Shown piece after piece: positions 3,600-31,436 of a stretch of DNA of 64,000 nucleotides. The stretch lies in the NCBI GenBank assembly GCA_024790105.1, contig GCA_024790105.1_3053.1. The stretch is one strand, 5' to 3'. Both the position numbers and the translations under genes were made by a program. The stretch comes from a phage. Position 1 is the stretch's first letter, and every line of letters starts with the position of its first letter. A model generated the notes under the pieces. The model was given only the letters and a program-made list of their open reading frames with translations. It was not told the DNA's origin and ran no database searches.

Positions 3600-4424
3600 T
3601 TAGATATTTGACCAGACTTTGTTTGCAGAGAAACGTTTTCCTTTGGAGTAGAAGCTTTGGAGTGGCATCAACACAACGTTCGCCCAGTCTTTCGGGGCGA
3701 TTTCAACAAGGCTACCCATAATATTACCGGGTATATATGCCTTAATCATTTGGTCTGCACCCCTAAATCCTTTCACTTGACTCCAATCAATTTTTAATTT
3801 CGTTTTATTAGTAATAGTAGGTGTATTTGAATATTGCTTTAAAAGCTCTTCTAGAAATTGCTGACGAGCTTTAGGTGGAATATAGTGCAAGTTTAATCCG
3901 TACATTAAATTATGCTTACCTAAACCAAGGTAAATTATCAAAGGAAATTTATCCCAGTAAGGAAGAGTTTCCTTGTGTTTAGCATCATAAGCAAAAGCAT
4001 ATATTCGTCCCGGCTGCGGGCGAACAACTTTATGTCCTTTTACTTGCTTAATAGTTTCAGCAAACCATTTTCTGGTTTTATTATTAATTGCTGCGCCTTC
4101 ATTACGAATTTTATCACGCAATGTTTGTCTGAATGAATTTATCATAAGCAGTTGTCTTTCTTGCTTATTGAGCTTATTCATTGGTTTTGATTCAAGCTTT
4201 TGAATCTTTTCAGCTGTTTTAATTCCTGAAGCATATTTTGACATTGCTGAAGTAAACGTAGAGTATTTGATTCCTCTTTCTTCAGCAAATTGCTTTCCTG
4301 TCATTCCTTTTGCTTTGGCCTTTTTGTATTCAAGACCTATCTGAATCCATTTCTTTTCGTTTAATGATTGCTTAACCTTTGGAACTTGGGGAGTGCTTTC
4401 ATTAATTATTTGAAAAATAGCCAT
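3600..4424 (-). CDS. 2: DNA end-protector protein gp2
   Basis: 274 aa, basic protein; synteny. Confidence 0.8.
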
Positions 4425-4876
4425 TATGCCCCCTTAAAGCCAAGAGCTCGTAATCCATCTTCTGTTAAAATTCTAAATTTTATTCCGCGCTTTTCAGCTA
4501 AAGCTTGAGCTGCTTTCCATTTATCAGTATTAACGGAATATGTATAAATTTCATTCATAAATCTTTTCTTCGCTGCAGTTGTTAGATGTGCTGGTTTAAC
4601 TGGTGGTTGTGTTTCTTTTTTAGGTTTTATTTCAATAAAAAATTCTTGTCCAGAAGAATCTTTCATCCAAATATCCATGAAGTATCTACGTTTTTTCCCT
4701 TCTGCATTACAAAAATAAGGAATTACTGCTGTTTCACTACCCCATGCAATAATTTCTGGATTTTTATCTAACCATTCAAAAAAGAATTTTTCCCAATTTG
4801 ATCTATACGTAATTTTTTTAGGGTCACCTCTATATTTTGATATATTTTTAGGAACCCATTTTCCAGAATATGCCAT
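4424..4876 (-). CDS. 4: head completion protein gp4
   Basis: 150 aa; synteny; divergent late promoter upstream. Confidence 0.8.
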
Positions 4877-4887
4877 TGGATTCTCCT

Positions 4888-4895
4888 TATAAATA
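4888..4895 (+). promoter_or_regulatory. late promoter TATAAATA (gene 53)
   Basis: exact TATAAATA ~28 nt upstream of gene 53 ATG. Confidence 0.6.
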
Positions 4896-4902
4896 GATAA
4901 TA

Positions 4903-4910
4903 TATTTATA
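4903..4910 (-). promoter_or_regulatory. late promoter TATAAATA (gene 4, divergent)
   Basis: exact TATAAATA on minus strand ~27 nt upstream of gene 4 start. Confidence 0.6.
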
Positions 4911-4923
4911 AACAGGAGGGCCC

Positions 4924-5514
4924 ATGCTCTTTACATTTTTTGATCCGATTGAATATGCGGCCAAAACGGTGAATAAAAACGCGCCGACTATTCCTATGAC
5001 AGATATTTTTAGAAACTATAAAGACTATTTCAAACGCGCTCTTGCTGGATACCGCTTACGTACTTATTATATTAAAGGTTCACCACGCCCGGAAGAATTA
5101 GCAAATACTATATATGGAAATCCACAGTTGTATTGGGTTTTATTGATGTGTAATGATAATTATGACCCGTATTATGGATGGATTACTTCGCAAGAAGCTG
5201 CTTATCAGGCATCTATACAAAAATACAAAAACGTAGGTGGAGACCAAATAGTATATCATGTAAATGAGAACGGTGAAAAATTTTATAATTTAGTATCATA
5301 CGATGATAATCCATATGTTTGGTATGACAAAGGTGATAAAGCTAGAAAATATCCTCAATATGAAGGAGCACTTGCTGCTGTTAATACGTATGAAGCTGCT
5401 GTTCTTGAAAATGAAAAACTTCGTCAAATAAAAATAATAGCAAAATCAGACATTAATTCATTTATGAACGACCTTATACGTATAATGGAGAAATCTTATG
5501 GAAATGATAAGTAA
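4924..5514 (+). CDS. 53: baseplate wedge protein gp53
   Basis: 196 aa; synteny immediately upstream of gene 5. Confidence 0.8.
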   Translation: MLFTFFDPIEYAAKTVNKNAPTIPMTDIFRNYKDYFKRALAGYRLRTYYIKGSPRPEELANTIYGNPQLYWVLLMCNDNYDPYYGWITSQEAAYQASIQKYKNVGGDQIVYHVNENGEKFYNLVSYDDNPYVWYDKGDKARKYPQYEGALAAVNTYEAAVLENEKLRQIKIIAKSDINSFMNDLIRIMEKSYGNDK

Positions 5515-7228
5515 TAACCTTAATTGGTTTGTTGGTGTTGTTGAAGATAGAATGGACCCATTAAAATTAGGTCGTGTTCGTGTTCGTGTGGTTGGTCTGC
5601 ATCCACCACAAAGAGCACAAGGTGATGTAATGGGTATTCCAACTGAAAAATTGCCATGGATGTCAGTTATTCAGCCTATAACTTCGGCAGCTATGTCTGG
5701 AATTGGAGGTTCCGTTACTGGACCGGTAGAAGGAACTAGAGTTTATGGTCATTTTTTGGACAAATGGAAAACTAACGGAATTGTCCTTGGCACGTATGGT
5801 GGAATAGTTCGCGAAAAACCGAATAGACTTGAAGGATTTTCTGACCCAACTGGGCAGTATCCTAGACGTTTAGGAAATGATACTAACGTACTAAACCAAG
5901 GCGGAGAAGTAGGATATGATTCATCTTCTAACATTATCCAAGATAGTAACTTAGACACTGCAATAAATCCTGATGATAGACCACTATCAGAGATTCCAAC
6001 TGATGATAATCCAAATATGTCAATGGCTGAAATGCTTCGCCGTGATGAAGGATTAAGACTAAAAGTTTATTGGGATACCGAAGGATATCCGACAATTGGT
6101 ATTGGTCATCTTATCATGAAGCAGCCAGTTCGTGATATGGCTCAAATTAATAAAGTTTTATCGAAACAAGTTGGTCGTGAAATTACTGGAAACCCAGGTT
6201 CTATTACAATGGAAGAAGCGGTAACTTTATTTGAACGCGATTTGGCTGATATGCAACGTGACATTAAATCACATTCTAAAGTAGGACCAGTCTGGCAAGC
6301 TGTCAACCGTTCTCGTCAAATGGCATTAGAAAATATGGCATTTCAGATGGGTGTTGGCGGTGTAGCTAAATTTAACACAATGTTAACTGCTATGTTAGCA
6401 GGAGATTGGGAAAAAGCATATAAAGCTGGTCGTGATTCATTGTGGTATCAACAAACAAAAGGCCGTGCATCCCGTGTTACCATGATTATTCTTACGGGGA
6501 ATTTGGAATCATATGGTGTTGAAGTGAAAACTCCAGCTAGGTCTTTGTCGGCAATGGCTGCTACTGTGGCGAAGTCTTCTGATCCAGCTGACCCTCCTAT
6601 TCCAAATGACTCAAGAATTTTATTCAAAGAACCAGTTTCTTCATATAAAGGCGAATATCCTTATGTGCATACAATGGAAACTGAAAGTGGACATATTCAG
6701 GAATTTGATGATACCCCTGGGCAAGAACGATATAGATTAGTTCATCCAACTGGAACTTATGAAGAAGTATCACCGTCAGGGAGAAGAACAAGAAAAACTG
6801 TTGATAATTTGTATGATATAACCAACGCTGATGGTAATTTTTTGGTAGCCGGTGATAAAAAGACTAACGTCGGTGGTTCAGAAATTTATTATAACATGGA
6901 TAATCGTCTTCACCAAATAGATGGAAGCAATACAATATTTGTACGTGGCGATGAAACTAAGACGGTTGAAGGTAATGGAACTATCCTAGTTAAAGGTAAT
7001 GTTACTATTGTAGTTGAAGGTAATGCTGACATTACAGTTAAAGGAGATGCTACTACTTTAGTTGAAGGAAATCAGACTAATACAGTAAATGGAAATCTTT
7101 CTTGGAAAGTTGCTGGGACAGTTGATTGGGACGTTGGTGGTGATTGGACAGAAAAAATGGCATCTATGAGTTCTATTTCATCTGGTCAATACACAATTGA
7201 TGGTAGCCGTATAGACGTAGGTTTATAA
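5498..7228 (+). CDS. 5: baseplate central spike with lysozyme domain (gp5)
   Basis: 576 aa; lysozyme-like segment EMLRRDEGLRLKVYWDTEGYPTIGIGHL; C-terminal 8-residue beta-helix repeats (VEGNGTILVKGNVTIVVEGNADITVKGD). Confidence 0.95.
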   Translation: MEMISNNLNWFVGVVEDRMDPLKLGRVRVRVVGLHPPQRAQGDVMGIPTEKLPWMSVIQPITSAAMSGIGGSVTGPVEGTRVYGHFLDKWKTNGIVLGTYGGIVREKPNRLEGFSDPTGQYPRRLGNDTNVLNQGGEVGYDSSSNIIQDSNLDTAINPDDRPLSEIPTDDNPNMSMAEMLRRDEGLRLKVYWDTEGYPTIGIGHLIMKQPVRDMAQINKVLSKQVGREITGNPGSITMEEAVTLFERDLADMQRDIKSHSKVGPVWQAVNRSRQMALENMAFQMGVGGVAKFNTMLTAMLAGDWEKAYKAGRDSLWYQQTKGRASRVTMIILTGNLESYGVEVKTPARSLSAMAATVAKSSDPADPPIPNDSRILFKEPVSSYKGEYPYVHTMETESGHIQEFDDTPGQERYRLVHPTGTYEEVSPSGRRTRKTVDNLYDITNADGNFLVAGDKKTNVGGSEIYYNMDNRLHQIDGSNTIFVRGDETKTVEGNGTILVKGNVTIVVEGNADITVKGDATTLVEGNQTNTVNGNLSWKVAGTVDWDVGGDWTEKMASMSSISSGQYTIDGSRIDVGL

Positions 7229-24012: not shown

Positions 24013-28170
<4,158 letters not shown>

Positions 28171-28201
28171 ATATATTAAAGCATATTAAAGAGGATTAAA
28201 A

Positions 28202-30181
28202 ATGACTTTATTATCTCCGGGCATTGAGCTCAAAGAAACTACGGTTCAAAGCACCGTGGTTAATAACTCTACTGGTACAGCAGCTTTGGCCGGTAAATTC
28301 CAGTGGGGTCCTGCTTTTCAAATTAAACAGGTTACAAATGAAGTAGATTTAGTTAATACTTTTGGTCAACCTACAGCTGAAACTGCTGACTATTTTATGT
28401 CTGCAATGAATTTCTTACAATACGGAAATGATTTGCGAGTTGTGCGTGCTGTCGATAGAGATACCGCTAAAAACTCATCTCCGATTGCCGGTAATATTGA
28501 ATACACTATTTCTACCCCAGGTAGTAACTACGCGGTTGGAGATAAAATCACGGTTAAGTATGTTTCAGAAGATGTTGAAACAGAATGTAAAGTTACCGAA
28601 GTAGATGCTGATGGAAAAATTAAGAAAATTAATATTCCTACCGCAAAAATTATCGCTAAAGCTAAAGAAGTCGGTGAATATCCAGAATTAGGTTCTAACT
28701 GGACTGTGGAAATTTCTTCATCTTCCTCTGGTTTAGCTGCAGTAATAACTCTTGGAAAAATTATTACTGATTCTGGTATTTTATTAGCTGAAATTGAAAA
28801 TGCTGAAGCTGCCATGACAGCGGTTGACTTTCAAGCAAATCTCGAAAAATATGGAATTCCAGGAGTAGTAGCTCTTTATCCAGGCGAATTAGGCGATAAA
28901 ATTGAAATTGAAATCGTATCTAAAGCTGACTATGCAAAAGGAGCTTCTGCATTACTCCCAATTTATCCAGGTGGTGGTACTCGTGCATCTACTGCTAAAG
29001 CAGTGTTTGGATATGGACCACAAACTGATTCACAGTACGCTATTATAGTTCGTCGTAATGATGCTATTGTTCAAAGCGTTGTTCTTTCAACTAAGCGTGG
29101 TGAAAAAGATATTTACGATAGTAACATCTATATCGATGACTTTTTCGCAAAAGGTGGTTCAGAATATATTTTTGCAACTGCACAAAACTGGCCAGAAGGC
29201 TTCTCTGGAATTTTAACTCTGTCTGGTGGATTATCATCAAATGCTGAAGTAACAGCAGGAGATTTGATGGAAGCTTGGGACTTCTTTGCTGACCGTGAAT
29301 CTGTTGACGTTCAACTGTTTATTGCGGGTTCTTGTGCCGGTGAATCTTTAGAAACAGCATCTACTGTCCAAAAACATGTTGTTTCAATCGGGGATGCTCG
29401 TCAAGATTGCTTAGTATTGTGCTCTCCTCCGCGTGAAACTGTAGTTGGAATTCCTGTAACTCGTGCTGTTGATAACTTAGTCAATTGGAGAACTGCAGCA
29501 GGTTCATACACTGATAATAACTTTAATATCAGTTCAACCTACGCAGCAATCGACGGCAACTACAAATATCAGTATGACAAATACAATGATGTCAATCGCT
29601 GGGTTCCATTAGCAGCTGATATTGCCGGTTTATGTGCAAGAACCGATAACGTTTCTCAGACTTGGATGTCTCCAGCTGGTTATAATCGCGGCCAGATTCT
29701 TAACGTTATTAAACTTGCTATTGAAACTCGCCAAGCTCAGCGCGACCGTTTATACCAAGAAGCTATCAACCCAGTGACTGGTACAGGTGGTGATGGTTAC
29801 GTATTATATGGTGATAAAACAGCTACTTCTGTTCCTTCTCCATTTGATCGTATTAACGTTCGTCGTCTGTTTAATATGTTGAAAACGAATATCGGACGTA
29901 GTTCAAAATATCGTTTGTTCGAATTAAACAACGCGTTTACTCGTTCATCATTCCGCACAGAAACTGCCCAATACTTACAGGGAATTAAAGCTCTCGGCGG
30001 AATTTATGAATATCGTGTAGTTTGCGATACAACAAATAACACTCCGTCAGTAATTGATAGAAATGAGTTTGTTGCAACATTCTACATCCAACCGGCGCGC
30101 AGTATAAATTATATTACTTTGAATTTCGTCGCAACTGCTACTGGCGCAGATTTCGATGAGTTAACTGGTCTTGCAGGTTAA
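28202..30181 (+). CDS. 18: tail sheath protein gp18
   Basis: 659 aa; synteny. Confidence 0.95.
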   Translation: MTLLSPGIELKETTVQSTVVNNSTGTAALAGKFQWGPAFQIKQVTNEVDLVNTFGQPTAETADYFMSAMNFLQYGNDLRVVRAVDRDTAKNSSPIAGNIEYTISTPGSNYAVGDKITVKYVSEDVETECKVTEVDADGKIKKINIPTAKIIAKAKEVGEYPELGSNWTVEISSSSSGLAAVITLGKIITDSGILLAEIENAEAAMTAVDFQANLEKYGIPGVVALYPGELGDKIEIEIVSKADYAKGASALLPIYPGGGTRASTAKAVFGYGPQTDSQYAIIVRRNDAIVQSVVLSTKRGEKDIYDSNIYIDDFFAKGGSEYIFATAQNWPEGFSGILTLSGGLSSNAEVTAGDLMEAWDFFADRESVDVQLFIAGSCAGESLETASTVQKHVVSIGDARQDCLVLCSPPRETVVGIPVTRAVDNLVNWRTAAGSYTDNNFNISSTYAAIDGNYKYQYDKYNDVNRWVPLAADIAGLCARTDNVSQTWMSPAGYNRGQILNVIKLAIETRQAQRDRLYQEAINPVTGTGGDGYVLYGDKTATSVPSPFDRINVRRLFNMLKTNIGRSSKYRLFELNNAFTRSSFRTETAQYLQGIKALGGIYEYRVVCDTTNNTPSVIDRNEFVATFYIQPARSINYITLNFVATATGADFDELTGLAG

Positions 30182-30189
30182 TTGATATG

Positions 30190-30208
30190 GGGGCTTCGGC
30201 CCCTATTC
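30190..30208 (+). terminator. GC hairpin after gene 18 (weak terminator or RNA-stability element)
   Basis: GGGGCTTCGGCCCC hairpin directly after gene 18 stop. Confidence 0.45.
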
Positions 30209-30220
30209 TCGAGGAATCAA

Positions 30221-30838
30221 GTGATTATTTCTAAATTTATTAAAGTGAAAATTGTACCATCAAATTTTAAACATTATCAATCAAAGGGTTATAAATTAAC
30301 ACCTCTTGGAGCGGTTAAACATGGATTTAGGTATTATGAAATTGATGTTAAAGTTGAAGACATTAAAGGTAGTACCGCGTATGTAAAATGCCGTTGCGAT
30401 AAATGTGGAATTGAATATAACCAACGCATTGGAAGAAACACTGATATTTGTCGTGATTGCCGTCATAAAGATAAAATGCGCAATAATTCATATGGTTCCG
30501 CGAATAAAGGAAAAACAGTAGAATGTATGCATGGCGTAAATCATCCAAGATGGAACCCAAATAAATCTGAAATGTGTGAATATATTTCATTGGTATATAA
30601 AGAAACTCGTAAGCATAAGAAAATTTGGTCAAAATGGCCAAATGCTGATAAAATAGGAGTGTGTGGTACAAAAGGCGCTTACCAACTTGATCATAAGGTA
30701 TCTATCAAATACGGTTTTGATAATTTAATTCCTGCTAAAATAATTGGCGGTATTAATAATTTAGAAATAATCACTTGGGAATCTAACCGAGAAAAATCAA
30801 AAAGAAATAGTGTAGATCTTTGGGATTTACTAGAATGA
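30221..30838 (+). CDS. HNH endonuclease with zinc ribbon, inserted between genes 18 and 19
   Basis: CRCDKCGIEY...CRDCRH Cys cluster; HNH-like YQLDHKVSIKYGFDN...NLEIITWESNREKSKRN; probable GTG start at 30221 after GAGGAA (ORF track begins at 30182). Confidence 0.7.
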   Translation: MIISKFIKVKIVPSNFKHYQSKGYKLTPLGAVKHGFRYYEIDVKVEDIKGSTAYVKCRCDKCGIEYNQRIGRNTDICRDCRHKDKMRNNSYGSANKGKTVECMHGVNHPRWNPNKSEMCEYISLVYKETRKHKKIWSKWPNADKIGVCGTKGAYQLDHKVSIKYGFDNLIPAKIIGGINNLEIITWESNREKSKRNSVDLWDLLE

Positions 30839-30844
30839 TTCTAA

Positions 30845-30862
30845 GGCCTGTTTCGGCAGGCC
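30845..30862 (+). terminator. hairpin after the HNH gene
   Basis: GGCCTG tttcg GCAGGCC inverted repeat. Confidence 0.4.
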
Positions 30863-30863
30863 A

Positions 30864-30871
30864 TATAAATA
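30864..30871 (+). promoter_or_regulatory. late promoter TATAAATA (distal, gene 19)
   Basis: exact TATAAATA. Confidence 0.5.
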
Positions 30872-30922: not shown

Positions 30923-30930
30923 TATAAATA
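30923..30930 (+). promoter_or_regulatory. late promoter TATAAATA (proximal, gene 19)
   Basis: exact TATAAATA 15 nt upstream of gene 19 ATG. Confidence 0.55.
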
Positions 30931-30944
30931 CTACAGAGGCTAAT

Positions 30945-31436
30945 ATGTTTGTAGATGATGTAACACGAGCGTTTGAATCTGGTGATTTTGCTCGACCTAA
31001 CTTATTCCAAGTAGAAATTTCTTATCTTGGACAAAATTTTACGTTTCAATGTAAAGCCACTGCTTTACCAGCTGGTATTGTAGAAAAAATTCCAGTCGGA
31101 TTTATGAACCGTAAAATTAATGTAGCAGGCGATCGTACATTCGATGACTGGACTGTTACAGTAATGAACGATGAGGCACATGATGCTCGCCAGAAGTTCG
31201 TTGATTGGCAAAGCATTGCTGCGGGACAAGGAAACGAAATTACTGGTGGAAAACCAGCAGAGTATAAAAAGAGCGCTATCGTTCGTCAATATGCTCGTGA
31301 CGCTAAAACAGTAACAAAAGAAATTGAAATTAAAGGTCTGTGGCCTACTAACGTGGGTGAACTTCAATTAGATTGGGATTCAAACAATGAAATCCAAACA
31401 TTTGAAGTAACTCTTGCTCTCGATTATTGGGAATAA
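30945..31436 (+). CDS. 19: tail tube protein gp19
   Basis: 163 aa; synteny. Confidence 0.95.
   Translation: MFVDDVTRAFESGDFARPNLFQVEISYLGQNFTFQCKATALPAGIVEKIPVGFMNRKINVAGDRTFDDWTVTVMNDEAHDARQKFVDWQSIAAGQGNEITGGKPAEYKKSAIVRQYARDAKTVTKEIEIKGLWPTNVGELQLDWDSNNEIQTFEVTLALDYWE

What the first reader, a model, noticed from the sequence alone, without database searches (positions are those of the whole stretch)
30182..30838. Zinc-ribbon HNH endonuclease wedged between tail sheath (18) and tail tube (19) genes
Genes 18 and 19 are adjacent in T4 as I recall it; here a ~205-aa ORF with a CxxC...CxxC cluster and an HNH-like DH...N...N core separates them. It is bracketed by a GC hairpin after gene 18 and by a hairpin plus two TATAAATA late promoters before gene 19. 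That suggests the regulatory architecture was preserved or duplicated around the insertion, as expected for a mobile endonuclease cassette that must not disrupt late gene expression.
Basis: partly seen in the sequence, partly recalled or inferred. Interest (0 to 1): 0.55.

Follow-up and report, generated by a model that had tools for sequence, protein, structure and literature searches.

The report
Mobile nuclease gene between tail genes
A 205-residue zinc-finger protein with an HNH-like nuclease core is inserted exactly between the tail sheath and tail tube genes of this T4-like phage; it behaves like a selfish "homing endonuclease" gene from an unnamed family, which is an ordinary kind of element in these phages, though this family and its probable target are undescribed.

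Summary
A 657-bp cassette (30182-30838) lies between gene 18 and gene 19. It consists of a GC hairpin, a Shine-Dalgarno sequence and a GTG-initiated 205-aa ORF (30221-30838). T4 has 8 bp at this position. About 76% of T4-like records have the empty site and about 24% carry one of two alleles.

The ORF has a CxxC...CxxC finger. Its C-terminal domain has only four invariant residues across 61 diverse relatives: D157, H158, N180 and N189. These sit on a predicted beta-beta-alpha unit. Pfam, NCBIfam and PDB sequence profiles do not call it HNH. Fold searches put HNH nucleases first, but weakly.

The downstream hairpin and both TATAAATA promoters are native T4 sequence. They are preserved, not duplicated.

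All 16 homologues whose context I read (33-99% identity, several genera) lie between the sheath and tube genes. ORF identities disagree with gp18 identities (53% against 99%), which indicates horizontal exchange.

The most divergent stretch of gene 18 between carriers and non-carriers, in three genera, is a synonymous island (30097-30130) encoding PARSINYITLNF. I propose it as the cleavage and immunity site.

Verdict: a free-standing HNH-like homing endonuclease gene, and a new member of a known kind. Moderate interest.

The parts
28166..28173 (+). Late promoter (TATAAATA) upstream of gene 18. It is the only late promoter upstream of the ORF before 30864, so it is the inferred source of read-through transcription of the ORF.
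   Evidence: no TATAAATA between 28166 and 30864. The role is inferred.
28202..30181 (+). Gene 18, tail sheath (659 aa), 98% identical to T4 gp18.
30097..30130 (+). Synonymous-substitution island in gene 18 (codons for A-R-S-I-N-Y-I-T-L-N-F-V of the conserved motif KPARSINYITLNFVAT). Proposed recognition/cleavage site in element-free phages and immunity variant in carriers.
   Evidence: It is the most divergent 36-nt window of gene 18 in carrier versus non-carrier pairs in three genera (10-14 of 36 differences), and not in non-carrier pairs. Function is inferred.
30182..30838 (+). Inserted cassette, absent from T4, where 8 bp 'TACGGTGC' stand instead.
30187..30206 (+). GC hairpin with UUCG loop, part of the cassette. 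Its extended lower stems pair the gene 18 stop region with part of the Shine-Dalgarno sequence. No T-run follows, so it is not a canonical terminator.
30211..30216 (+). Shine-Dalgarno GAGGAA for the ORF, partly sequestered in the extended hairpin.
30221..30838 (+). ORF, 205 aa, GTG start, TGA stop at 30836-30838. Putative free-standing homing endonuclease, allele A (the 'T6 gp19.1' family).
30389..30460 (+). Zinc-ribbon / treble-clef-like finger, C57/C59/C62 ... C77/C80. It lies in the variable N-terminal module presumed to bind DNA.
   Evidence: (DUF4379 in 7 members, best E 8e-4)
30680..30796 (+). HNH-like beta-beta-alpha core, residues 154-192, with D157-H158 at the end of beta1, N180 before beta2, and N189 in the helix.
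30845..30862 (+). Native T4 hairpin of the 18-19 spacer, identical in T4.
30864..30871 (+). Native late promoter 1 for gene 19, identical in T4.
30923..30930 (+). Native late promoter 2 for gene 19, identical in T4.
30945..31436 (+). Gene 19, tail tube (163 aa), 100% identical to T4 gp19.

Best explanation
The cassette at 30182-30838 is a free-standing homing endonuclease gene of an uncharacterised family, the one labelled 'gp19.1' or 'T6ORF160' in some records. The protein is modular. It has a variable N-terminal domain with a four-cysteine finger (presumed DNA recognition), a flexible linker, and a conserved C-terminal HNH-like (D-H...N...N) beta-beta-alpha nuclease domain. It has no promoter of its own. 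It is transcribed late by read-through from gene 18 and translated weakly, from a GTG start with a partly occluded ribosome-binding site. In a mixed infection with a relative that lacks it, the enzyme is proposed to nick or cut the recipient's gene 18 about 50-85 bp upstream of the insertion point, within the DNA encoding the ultra-conserved gp18 motif PARSINYITLNF. Recombinational repair from the carrier genome then copies the cassette and the flanking synonymous variants into the recipient. Carrier genomes are largely protected by a dense block of synonymous changes at that site.

Shown here: the insertion/absence polymorphism with exact boundaries; the conserved catalytic-type residues; horizontal exchange of alleles; the polymorphic island linked to carriage.

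Inferred: nuclease activity, the cut site, immunity, and homing itself.
For: Insertion. T4 and 382 of 502 T4-like records have the empty site, and about 120 are filled. Clean indels occur at the same junction in a second genus.

Module context. In remote relatives the same C-terminal domain follows DUF7487. That is where Hef-like homing endonucleases carry a DUF559 nuclease.

Mobility. ORF identity is 53% between phages with 99% identical gp18, and 34% between two Dhakaviruses with 99% identical gp18. Cross-genus pairs reach 58-60%. Alleles A and B share their ends (90-96% DNA identity) but not the central 380 nt (about 42%). There are two different insertion points within the spacer.

Target island. 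It is the top-ranked divergent window of gene 18 in carrier versus non-carrier comparisons in three genera. The changes are nearly all synonymous and include AGA<->CGC and AGC<->TCG switches. The island is not top-ranked in non-carrier pairs. Carriers are almost always the variant type, whereas about two thirds of empty sites are T4-type.

Precedent. This closely parallels MobE and nrdB: promoterless gene, polymorphic nick site (PMC2790892).
Confidence: 0.7

Rival explanations
1. It is an old, vertically inherited accessory late gene of the sheath-tube module, for example a nuclease or nucleic-acid-binding helper in tail or packaging biology. On this view it has been lost many times (T4, T2 and others) and is not a selfish mobile element.
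Against: ORF identity is decoupled from gp18 identity: 53% against 99%, 34% against 99%, while cross-genus pairs reach 58-60%. The gene is absent from 76% of otherwise about 98% identical genomes, with exact boundaries. There is a central-module swap between alleles. There are two distinct insertion points. A linked synonymous island sits in gene 18. T4 is fully viable without the gene (established knowledge).
Confidence: 0.12
2. It is a nuclease kept mainly as a weapon in phage-phage competition. On this view it excludes markers or degrades co-infecting relatives' DNA, and copying of the gene is a by-product rather than the selected trait.
For: It has the same nuclease-type core and target-island evidence as the main explanation. 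T-even homing endonucleases are known to cause localized marker exclusion (PMC2988022, PMC2790892). About one third of empty-site phages carry variant, possibly resistant, islands, as expected under an arms race.
Against: It cannot be distinguished from homing with sequence data. The cassette is minimal and ends at its own stop codon, as selfish cassettes do. It matches no defence-system model.
Confidence: 0.1
3. It is not a nuclease. On this view it is a zinc-finger nucleic-acid-binding protein that regulates late expression around genes 18 and 19, and the D-H/N/N motif is coincidental or structural.
For: Only zinc-finger families give hits in Pfam and the PDB. No HNH model is significant.
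Against: Across 61 diverse domains the four invariant residues are exactly the catalytic set of Cas9-type HNH domains, and the Asn-to-Asn spacing of 9 is the same (residue roles from established knowledge of SpCas9 D839/H840/N854/N863). Fold searches are enriched for HNH-type (His-Me finger) nucleases. In relatives the domain replaces a DUF559 nuclease after DUF7487. Regulation of genes 18 and 19 works without the protein in T4.
Confidence: 0.05

Closest known systems
T4 MobE (and MobA-D), free-standing HNH homing endonucleases
   Same: Free-standing gene in a spacer between conserved genes. [quoted passage not shown] Patchy distribution among T-even phages. A cluster of polymorphisms in the neighbouring conserved gene distinguishes carriers from non-carriers (PMC2790892).
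   Different: Mob proteins have an N-terminal HNH that passes Pfam PF01844, and C-terminal NUMOD modules. Here the HNH-like core is C-terminal, has an 8-residue insertion and H-N-N instead of H-N-H, fails all Pfam HNH models, and the DNA-binding part is an N-terminal Cys4 finger. The profile-profile probability is 0.2%. It is not a Mob family member.
Cas9-type HNH domain (Pfam HNH_4) and small phage HNH nucleases (Gme HNH 4h9d, GVE2 HNH 5h0o)
   Different: None of these matches is statistically significant. There are 22 rather than 14 residues between His and the first Asn. No Cys pairs flank the motif. The biological context is different.
I-HmuI and I-TevIII (intron-encoded HNH endonucleases of phages)
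   Same: Modular design: a nuclease domain plus extended DNA-binding modules joined by a linker. I-TevIII also combines HNH with zinc fingers (PMC2988022). A BFVD hit named after the I-HmuI structure has E 4e-6.
   Different: Those are intron-encoded, while this gene is free-standing. The domain order is reversed relative to I-HmuI. There is no detectable sequence similarity.
Hef-like homing endonucleases (e.g. F-LimVIII of Dickeya phage LIMEstone1)
   Same: F-LimVIII also sits between the tail sheath and tail tube genes. Its DUF7487 module is found fused to this family's C-terminal domain in remote relatives.
   Different: Hef-like proteins are about 500-600 aa and carry a DUF559/Vsr-type nuclease. 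hhalign probability against this family is 0.8%. The nuclease domains are unrelated.

Membership tests
HNH / His-Me finger (beta-beta-alpha-metal) nuclease superfamily | Catalytic His at the end of strand beta1, usually preceded by Asp/Asn/His | tested here: met
   D157-H158 are invariant in 29 full-length and 61 diverse domain sequences. They lie at the end of predicted strand 154-158.
HNH / His-Me finger (beta-beta-alpha-metal) nuclease superfamily | Structural Asn at beta2 and a metal-binding Asn/His in the following helix | tested here: met
   N180 (followed by L181) precedes strand 181-185, and N189 lies in helix 186-192. Both are invariant. The registry agrees with MobC (N-L, H) and with the SpCas9 alignment.
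HNH / His-Me finger (beta-beta-alpha-metal) nuclease superfamily | Beta-beta-alpha fold similar to solved HNH structures | tested here: inconclusive
HNH / His-Me finger (beta-beta-alpha-metal) nuclease superfamily | Significant match to a curated HNH sequence model | tested here: not met
   Pfam gives no HNH hit for the ORF. HNH_4 and HNH_5 appear at E 0.03-0.2 in single relatives only. NCBIfam gives none. PDB profile searches give none. As a positive control, T4 MobB and MobC pass PF01844.
HNH / His-Me finger (beta-beta-alpha-metal) nuclease superfamily | Metal-dependent DNA nicking or cleavage | not testable with these tools
   Needs purified protein or in vivo mapping.
T4 Mob family (MobA-E) | Conserved N-terminal HNH block (MNY..IY...HHIIPR.MGG.DD..NLV.LT..EH) | tested here: not met
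   Alignment A4 of MobB-E against A3 gives hhalign probability 0.2%. The HNH-like core here is C-terminal.
T4 Mob family (MobA-E) | C-terminal NUMOD-type DNA-binding modules | tested here: not met
   NUMOD1/3 are found in MobB but not in the ORF.
Free-standing homing endonuclease genes (functional class) | Gene in a spacer between conserved genes, with presence/absence polymorphism and exact boundaries among close relatives | tested here: met
   382 empty against about 120 filled; T4 has 8 bp in place of 657 bp; the same pattern is seen in a second genus.
Free-standing homing endonuclease genes (functional class) | Horizontal spread: gene tree discordant with host backbone | tested here: met
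   Identity matrix. Mosaic alleles. This is based on pairwise identities, not a formal reconciliation.
Free-standing homing endonuclease genes (functional class) | Site-specific cut in the element-free allele near the insertion site, with protective polymorphisms in carriers | tested here: inconclusive
   A linked synonymous island at 30097-30130 is seen in three genera. There are exceptions (sb1, sb2), and cleavage itself was not tested.
Free-standing homing endonuclease genes (functional class) | Nuclease-dependent super-Mendelian inheritance in mixed infection | not testable with these tools
   Requires phage crosses.
Hef-like homing endonucleases | DUF7487 repeats plus a DUF559/Vsr-like nuclease domain | tested here: not met
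   No such Pfam hits in the ORF. hhalign against F-LimVIII gives probability 0.8%.
Terminase-associated HNH proteins of cos phages | Conserved, required partner encoded next to the terminase genes | tested here: not met
   The ORF is separated from gene 17 by gene 18 and is absent from 76% of close relatives including T4. The requirement for packaging was not tested, but T4 packages DNA without it (established knowledge).
Known anti-phage defence proteins (PADLOC) | Match to a defence-system model | tested here: not met
   No hit at E <= 1.

The most novel reading that the evidence does not exclude
This is a deep lineage of HNH-like homing endonucleases with no Pfam or NCBIfam model (6,281 cluster representatives at E <= 1e-3). 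It is locked to one genomic address, the sheath/tube junction, across T4-like phages of enterobacteria, Acinetobacter, rhizobia and uncultured hosts. It holds that address because it targets the DNA encoding the near-invariant gp18 motif KPARSINYITLNFVAT. It is in an ongoing arms race with that site. The host gene escapes by wholesale synonymous recoding, including six-fold codon-family jumps. The element answers by swapping its central recognition module while keeping its catalytic domain and its cassette ends, as seen in alleles A and B in otherwise 99% identical phages.
Probability: 0.4. Interest if true: 0.6.

Novelty: new member of a known kind. Interest (0 to 1): 0.45.

Why it matters
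If confirmed, this adds an uncharacterised and widespread nuclease family to the catalogue of phage homing endonucleases. Nearly all deposited copies are currently annotated 'hypothetical protein'.

It also offers a well-defined test system using classical phages. T6 and RB3 carry the gene. T4 has an empty, putatively sensitive site. T2 has an empty site with a variant island. That set allows study of how a homing endonuclease and its target co-evolve through synonymous recoding and recognition-module exchange.

Practically, the element marks a recombination hotspot inside the structural gene block. That is relevant to mosaicism, to marker exclusion in mixed infections of therapeutic T4-like phages, and to annotation pipelines. 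A small modular HNH nickase with an exchangeable finger domain could also interest genome-engineering work.

None of this changes the general picture of T-even genomes as rich in such elements.

Tried and rejected
- Pfam, NCBIfam, PHROGs and PADLOC scans of the ORF gave only weak zinc-finger hits, PHROG 5104 'unknown function', and no defence model.
- PDB sequence searches with the ORF, the family profile and a 61-sequence C-terminal profile gave zinc fingers, spurious leucine-rich-repeat and AAV capsid hits, and no HNH.
- Hef-like membership is rejected.
- T4 Mob membership is rejected.
- The idea that the downstream hairpin and promoters were duplicated by the insertion is rejected, because they are native T4 sequence.
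- The hairpin after gene 18 as an intrinsic terminator has no support: there is no T-run and the scan found 0 sites.
- I looked by eye for a MotA-box/-10 combination (T4 middle promoter) inside the cassette. None is convincing.
- My last large protein search, with the MobC N-terminus to build an HNH profile, returned one hit and was wasted.
- The metagenome pattern scan gave only six loci, one of them a duplicate of L011.
- The IMG/VR scan with gp19 gave 15 loci.
- Literature searches for gp19.1, for homing endonucleases at the 18/19 junction, and for Hef found no description of this ORF. The Sandegren 2005 paper is not held.

Full report
**1. What is in the sequence**

The window is a T4-like (Tequatrovirus) structural-gene region. 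Gene 18 (tail sheath, 28202-30181) and gene 19 (tail tube, 30945-31436) are 98% and 100% identical in protein to T4. An ORF lies between them. The ORF lister gives 30182-30838 with a TTG start. The biologically sensible start is GTG at 30221, five bases after GAGGAA (30211-30216). This gives 205 aa, matches the RB3 annotation, and matches the common 'MIISK' N-terminus of every homologue.

- The cysteines are C57/C59/C62 and C77/C80.
- The D-H...N...N set is D157-H158, N180 and N189.
- There is a GC hairpin with a UUCG loop at 30187-30206.
- A second hairpin lies at 30845-30862.
- Two TATAAATA late-promoter motifs lie at 30864 and 30923.

**2. It is an insertion with exact boundaries**

In T4, genes 18 and 19 are separated by 116 nt. 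A base-by-base comparison shows that T4 and five uncultured T4-like contigs have 'TACGGTGC' directly after the gene 18 stop codon. The window has 30182 to about 30836 at that position. From 'ATTCTAAGGCC...' onward the spacer, including the hairpin and both late promoters, is identical in all of them.

The downstream regulatory block is therefore the native T4 spacer, preserved rather than duplicated. The upstream hairpin belongs to the cassette and has a different sequence.

The cassette contains no TATAAATA of its own; the nearest upstream one is at 28166, before gene 18. The scan finds no terminator. The ORF must therefore be transcribed late by read-through. The local RNA fold pairs the gene 18 stop region and part of the Shine-Dalgarno sequence in extensions of the hairpin (-20.6 kcal/mol, z -2.9). 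Together with the GTG start, this suggests low, possibly termination-coupled translation. That last point is inference.

Phage T4 mobE is likewise promoterless, and an RNA hairpin sequestering its ribosome-binding site has been reported (PMC2790892; reference 68 in PMC2993671).

**3. Distribution**

- With a 176-nt probe across the T4 empty junction, 382 of 502 matching phage records have the uninterrupted site.
- With a probe across the window's filled junction, 116 records are filled.
- 48 records carry this allele (A; RB3, RB5-10, HP3, HY03, Sf22 and others).
- The rest carry allele B (ECML-134, PP01, T6).
- T6 has allele B. It is annotated 'T6ORF160', and the VR7 record calls it 'T6 gp19.1'.
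- T2 has an empty site.

tblastn finds homologues in 237 phage records, and 233 of them are full length. I read the genomic context of 16 homologues: RB3, ECML-134, T6, VR7, a VR26-like contig, PSD9, Bp7, EcoM_005, Acinetobacter phage Mokit, Sinorhizobium phage phiM7, three Shigella sb phages, and three environmental contigs with 32-38% identity. All 16 lie between the sheath and tube genes.

**4. What the protein is**

No curated model names it.
- Pfam, NCBIfam and the PDB give only sub-threshold zinc-finger hits.
- PHROG 5104 is 'unknown function'.
- PADLOC gives nothing.

The family is nonetheless large. There are 164 clusters at 90% identity. A profile search of 1.84 billion representatives gives 6,281 hits at E <= 1e-3, of which 1,362 are at 1e-10.

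The AlphaFold model (mean pLDDT 85) has three parts: an N-terminal strand/helix region with the cysteine finger, a low-confidence linker (residues about 87-113), and a confident C-terminal domain.

I aligned 61 C-terminal domains that are at most 55% identical to each other. The only invariant columns are D157, H158, N180 and N189. In the model they sit at the end of strand 154-158, just before strand 181-185, and in helix 186-192. That is the beta-beta-alpha-metal topology.

The set D-H...N...N with nine residues between the two Asn is the catalytic set of Cas9-type HNH domains. The residue roles come from established knowledge of SpCas9 D839/H840/N854/N863.

Fold-search results:
- Foldseek against the PDB gives the Nme1Cas9 HNH domain first, at E 0.63.
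- Foldseek against BFVD gives E 4e-6 to 3e-3 to viral proteins that their sources name HNH or homing endonuclease, and to DUF7487 proteins.

Both align D-H, N-L and N with the HNH positions, with an 8-residue insertion between the strands. A profile of MobB-E gives the same registry but 0.2% probability. As a control, MobB and MobC pass Pfam HNH.

I conclude that the C-terminal domain is very probably a divergent H-N-N member of the HNH/His-Me finger superfamily (about 0.75). This is not proven by sequence statistics.

An architectural argument supports a nuclease role. In remote relatives the same domain follows DUF7487. In Hef-like homing endonucleases such as F-LimVIII, DUF7487 is followed by a DUF559/Vsr-type nuclease.

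**5. Evidence for mobility**

- Pairwise identities are discordant. The window and ECML-134 have 99% identical gp18 but 53% identical ORFs. PSD9 and Bp7 have 99% against 34%. Cross-genus ORF pairs reach 58-60% although gp18 is about 72%.
- Alleles A and B are mosaics. The first 60 nt (hairpin, Shine-Dalgarno, 11 codons) are 96% identical. The last 220 nt (the nuclease domain) are about 90% identical. The central 380 nt are at background identity, about 42%. The presumed recognition module has therefore been exchanged inside a conserved cassette.
- In Gaprivervirus-like phages there are again empty and filled sites with clean boundaries.
- Two different insertion points are used in the spacer. 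One is directly after the gene 18 stop (A, B, VR7, PSD9). The other abuts the gene 19 start (Bp7, EcoM_005, VR26-like, Mokit).
- An unrelated Hef-like endonuclease gene occupies the same spacer in Dickeya phage LIMEstone1.

**6. A probable target**

Comparing the window or RB3 with T4, the densest cluster of differences in all 1,980 nt of gene 18 is a 36-nt window starting 84 nt before the end of the gene. It has 10 differences against a gene-wide 2.6-4.6%. All ten are synonymous, including Arg AGA to CGC.

The same window ranks first in two further comparisons:
- allele B against T4 (14 of 36);
- a carrier against a non-carrier in a second genus (L004 against L018, 14 of 36, including CGC to AGG and AGC to TCG).

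In a third genus, two Dhakaviruses with different alleles (L006 against L008) have 14 of 36 differences in the top window, which starts 99 nt before the stop; the windows starting 87 and 75 nt before it rank next and overlap the island. The island is not among the top windows in three non-carrier pairs.

The island encodes PARSINYITLNF, part of a motif that is conserved from coliphages to KVP40-like and environmental phages. The 50 nt between the island and the cassette are nearly invariant. The island is therefore a discrete patch, not merely the end of a co-converted tract.

The island also tracks the allele. Allele A carriers have ...ATT ACT TTG AAT.... Allele B carriers (ECML-134, T6 and two metagenome contigs) have ...ATC CAA CTT AAT....

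Across records, carriers are almost all of variant type. Among evenly spaced rows of the ranking, about 29 of 45 empty-site rows are T4-type. A rough 2x2 table (116/4 against 134/243) gives p about 1e-36. The counts are estimates and are not phylogenetically independent. My hand-read sample (7/2 against 2/7) gives p = 0.057.

There are exceptions. Shigella phages sb1 and sb2 combine allele A with a T4-type island. About a third of empty sites, including T2, have variant islands.

This pattern closely mirrors the nrdB polymorphisms at the MobE nick site (PMC2790892). I propose 30097-30130 as the recognition/cleavage and immunity site, with confidence about 0.5.

**7. Comparison with known systems and verdict**

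In kind, this is a free-standing homing endonuclease gene like the T4 mob and seg genes.

It is not a member of the Mob family. The domain order is reversed, there are no NUMOD modules, and there is no significant similarity. It is not Hef-like either.

I found no paper describing it. The two 2010 T4 reviews list homing endonucleases by family, and in the passages I searched neither mentions an element at the 18/19 junction. A few recent GenBank records label homologues 'HNH endonuclease' or 'homing endonuclease'.

I rate it a new member of a known kind. Its interesting particulars are a large nuclease family with no curated model, strict site fidelity over deep divergence, an allelic module swap, and a concrete, testable target. 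Interest 0.45.

Noticed in passing
window 25318-28170: Gene 17 (terminase large subunit) is split into three ORFs. The first (25318-26211) ends '...IYIDE|[11 protein letters not shown]...' which looks like the start of an intein. The second (26198-26797) is a 199-aa TnsA_N/endonuclease-I-like ORF (Pfam PF08722, E 5e-10; PHROG 15427 'endonuclease'). The third (26785-28170) begins with about 105 extra residues ending '...VESHN|CAFIPNF', which looks like an intein C-terminus plus Cys+1. Together this looks like a bisected (split) intein with a free-standing nuclease gene inside. 17 of 579 matching phage records share it, for example HY03, PD112 and pSe_SNUABM_01.
   Followed up: partly
L025:8129-9919 (Dickeya phage LIMEstone1): An unrelated 596-aa Hef-like homing endonuclease (F-LimVIII; DUF7487 plus DUF559) also sits between the tail sheath and tail tube genes, on the opposite strand. 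The 18/19 spacer is therefore a landing site for more than one endonuclease family.
   Followed up: partly
L006:3769-4350 and 4408-5630 (phage Bp7); L009:3747-4328: Dhakaviruses Bp7 and EcoM_005 carry a further 193-aa ORF between genes 19 and 20. It is annotated 'HNH endonuclease', but only a weak SegE GIY-YIG Pfam hit was found. Bp7 gene 20 (portal) is annotated in two pieces.
   Followed up: no
L026, L027 (Shigella phages sb1, sb2): Allele A sits next to a T4-type gene 18 island, contrary to the general linkage. sb2 also has frameshifted annotation around the junction, so assembly quality or chimerism is a concern.
   Followed up: partly
L004:2960-3000, L005:2955-3000, L006/L009 upstream of 2501: In other genera the homologous ORF has its own TATAAATA late promoter. 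It lies inside the hairpin loop or stem (VR7, Mokit) or between hairpin and start codon (Bp7, EcoM_005). Several alleles also use GTG starts.
   Followed up: partly
BFVD M1HDJ8 (Salmonella phage S16); P0023: These are truncated relatives. One is a 106-aa protein matching only the C-terminal domain at 67% identity. The other is a 120-aa fragment cluster. They may be decayed copies, as expected in a homing-endonuclease life cycle.
   Followed up: no
search hits MG010123.1, PV654520.1, MW749000.1: Records labelled Staphylococcus phage SAJK-IND (32 kb), Pseudomonas phage vB_PSGBLB0006 and Hafnia phage IsaacDaniel contain this T4-like region at 96-98% identity or carry a Tequatrovirus-type allele. 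The host labels look doubtful for at least the first two.
   Followed up: no
window 30189-30193 vs L001: The cassette hairpin has five G in the window (GGGGGCTTCGGCCCC) but four in RB3, T6 and ECML-134. This gives a slightly longer stem in the window (-20.8 against -16 to -17 kcal/mol).
   Followed up: no
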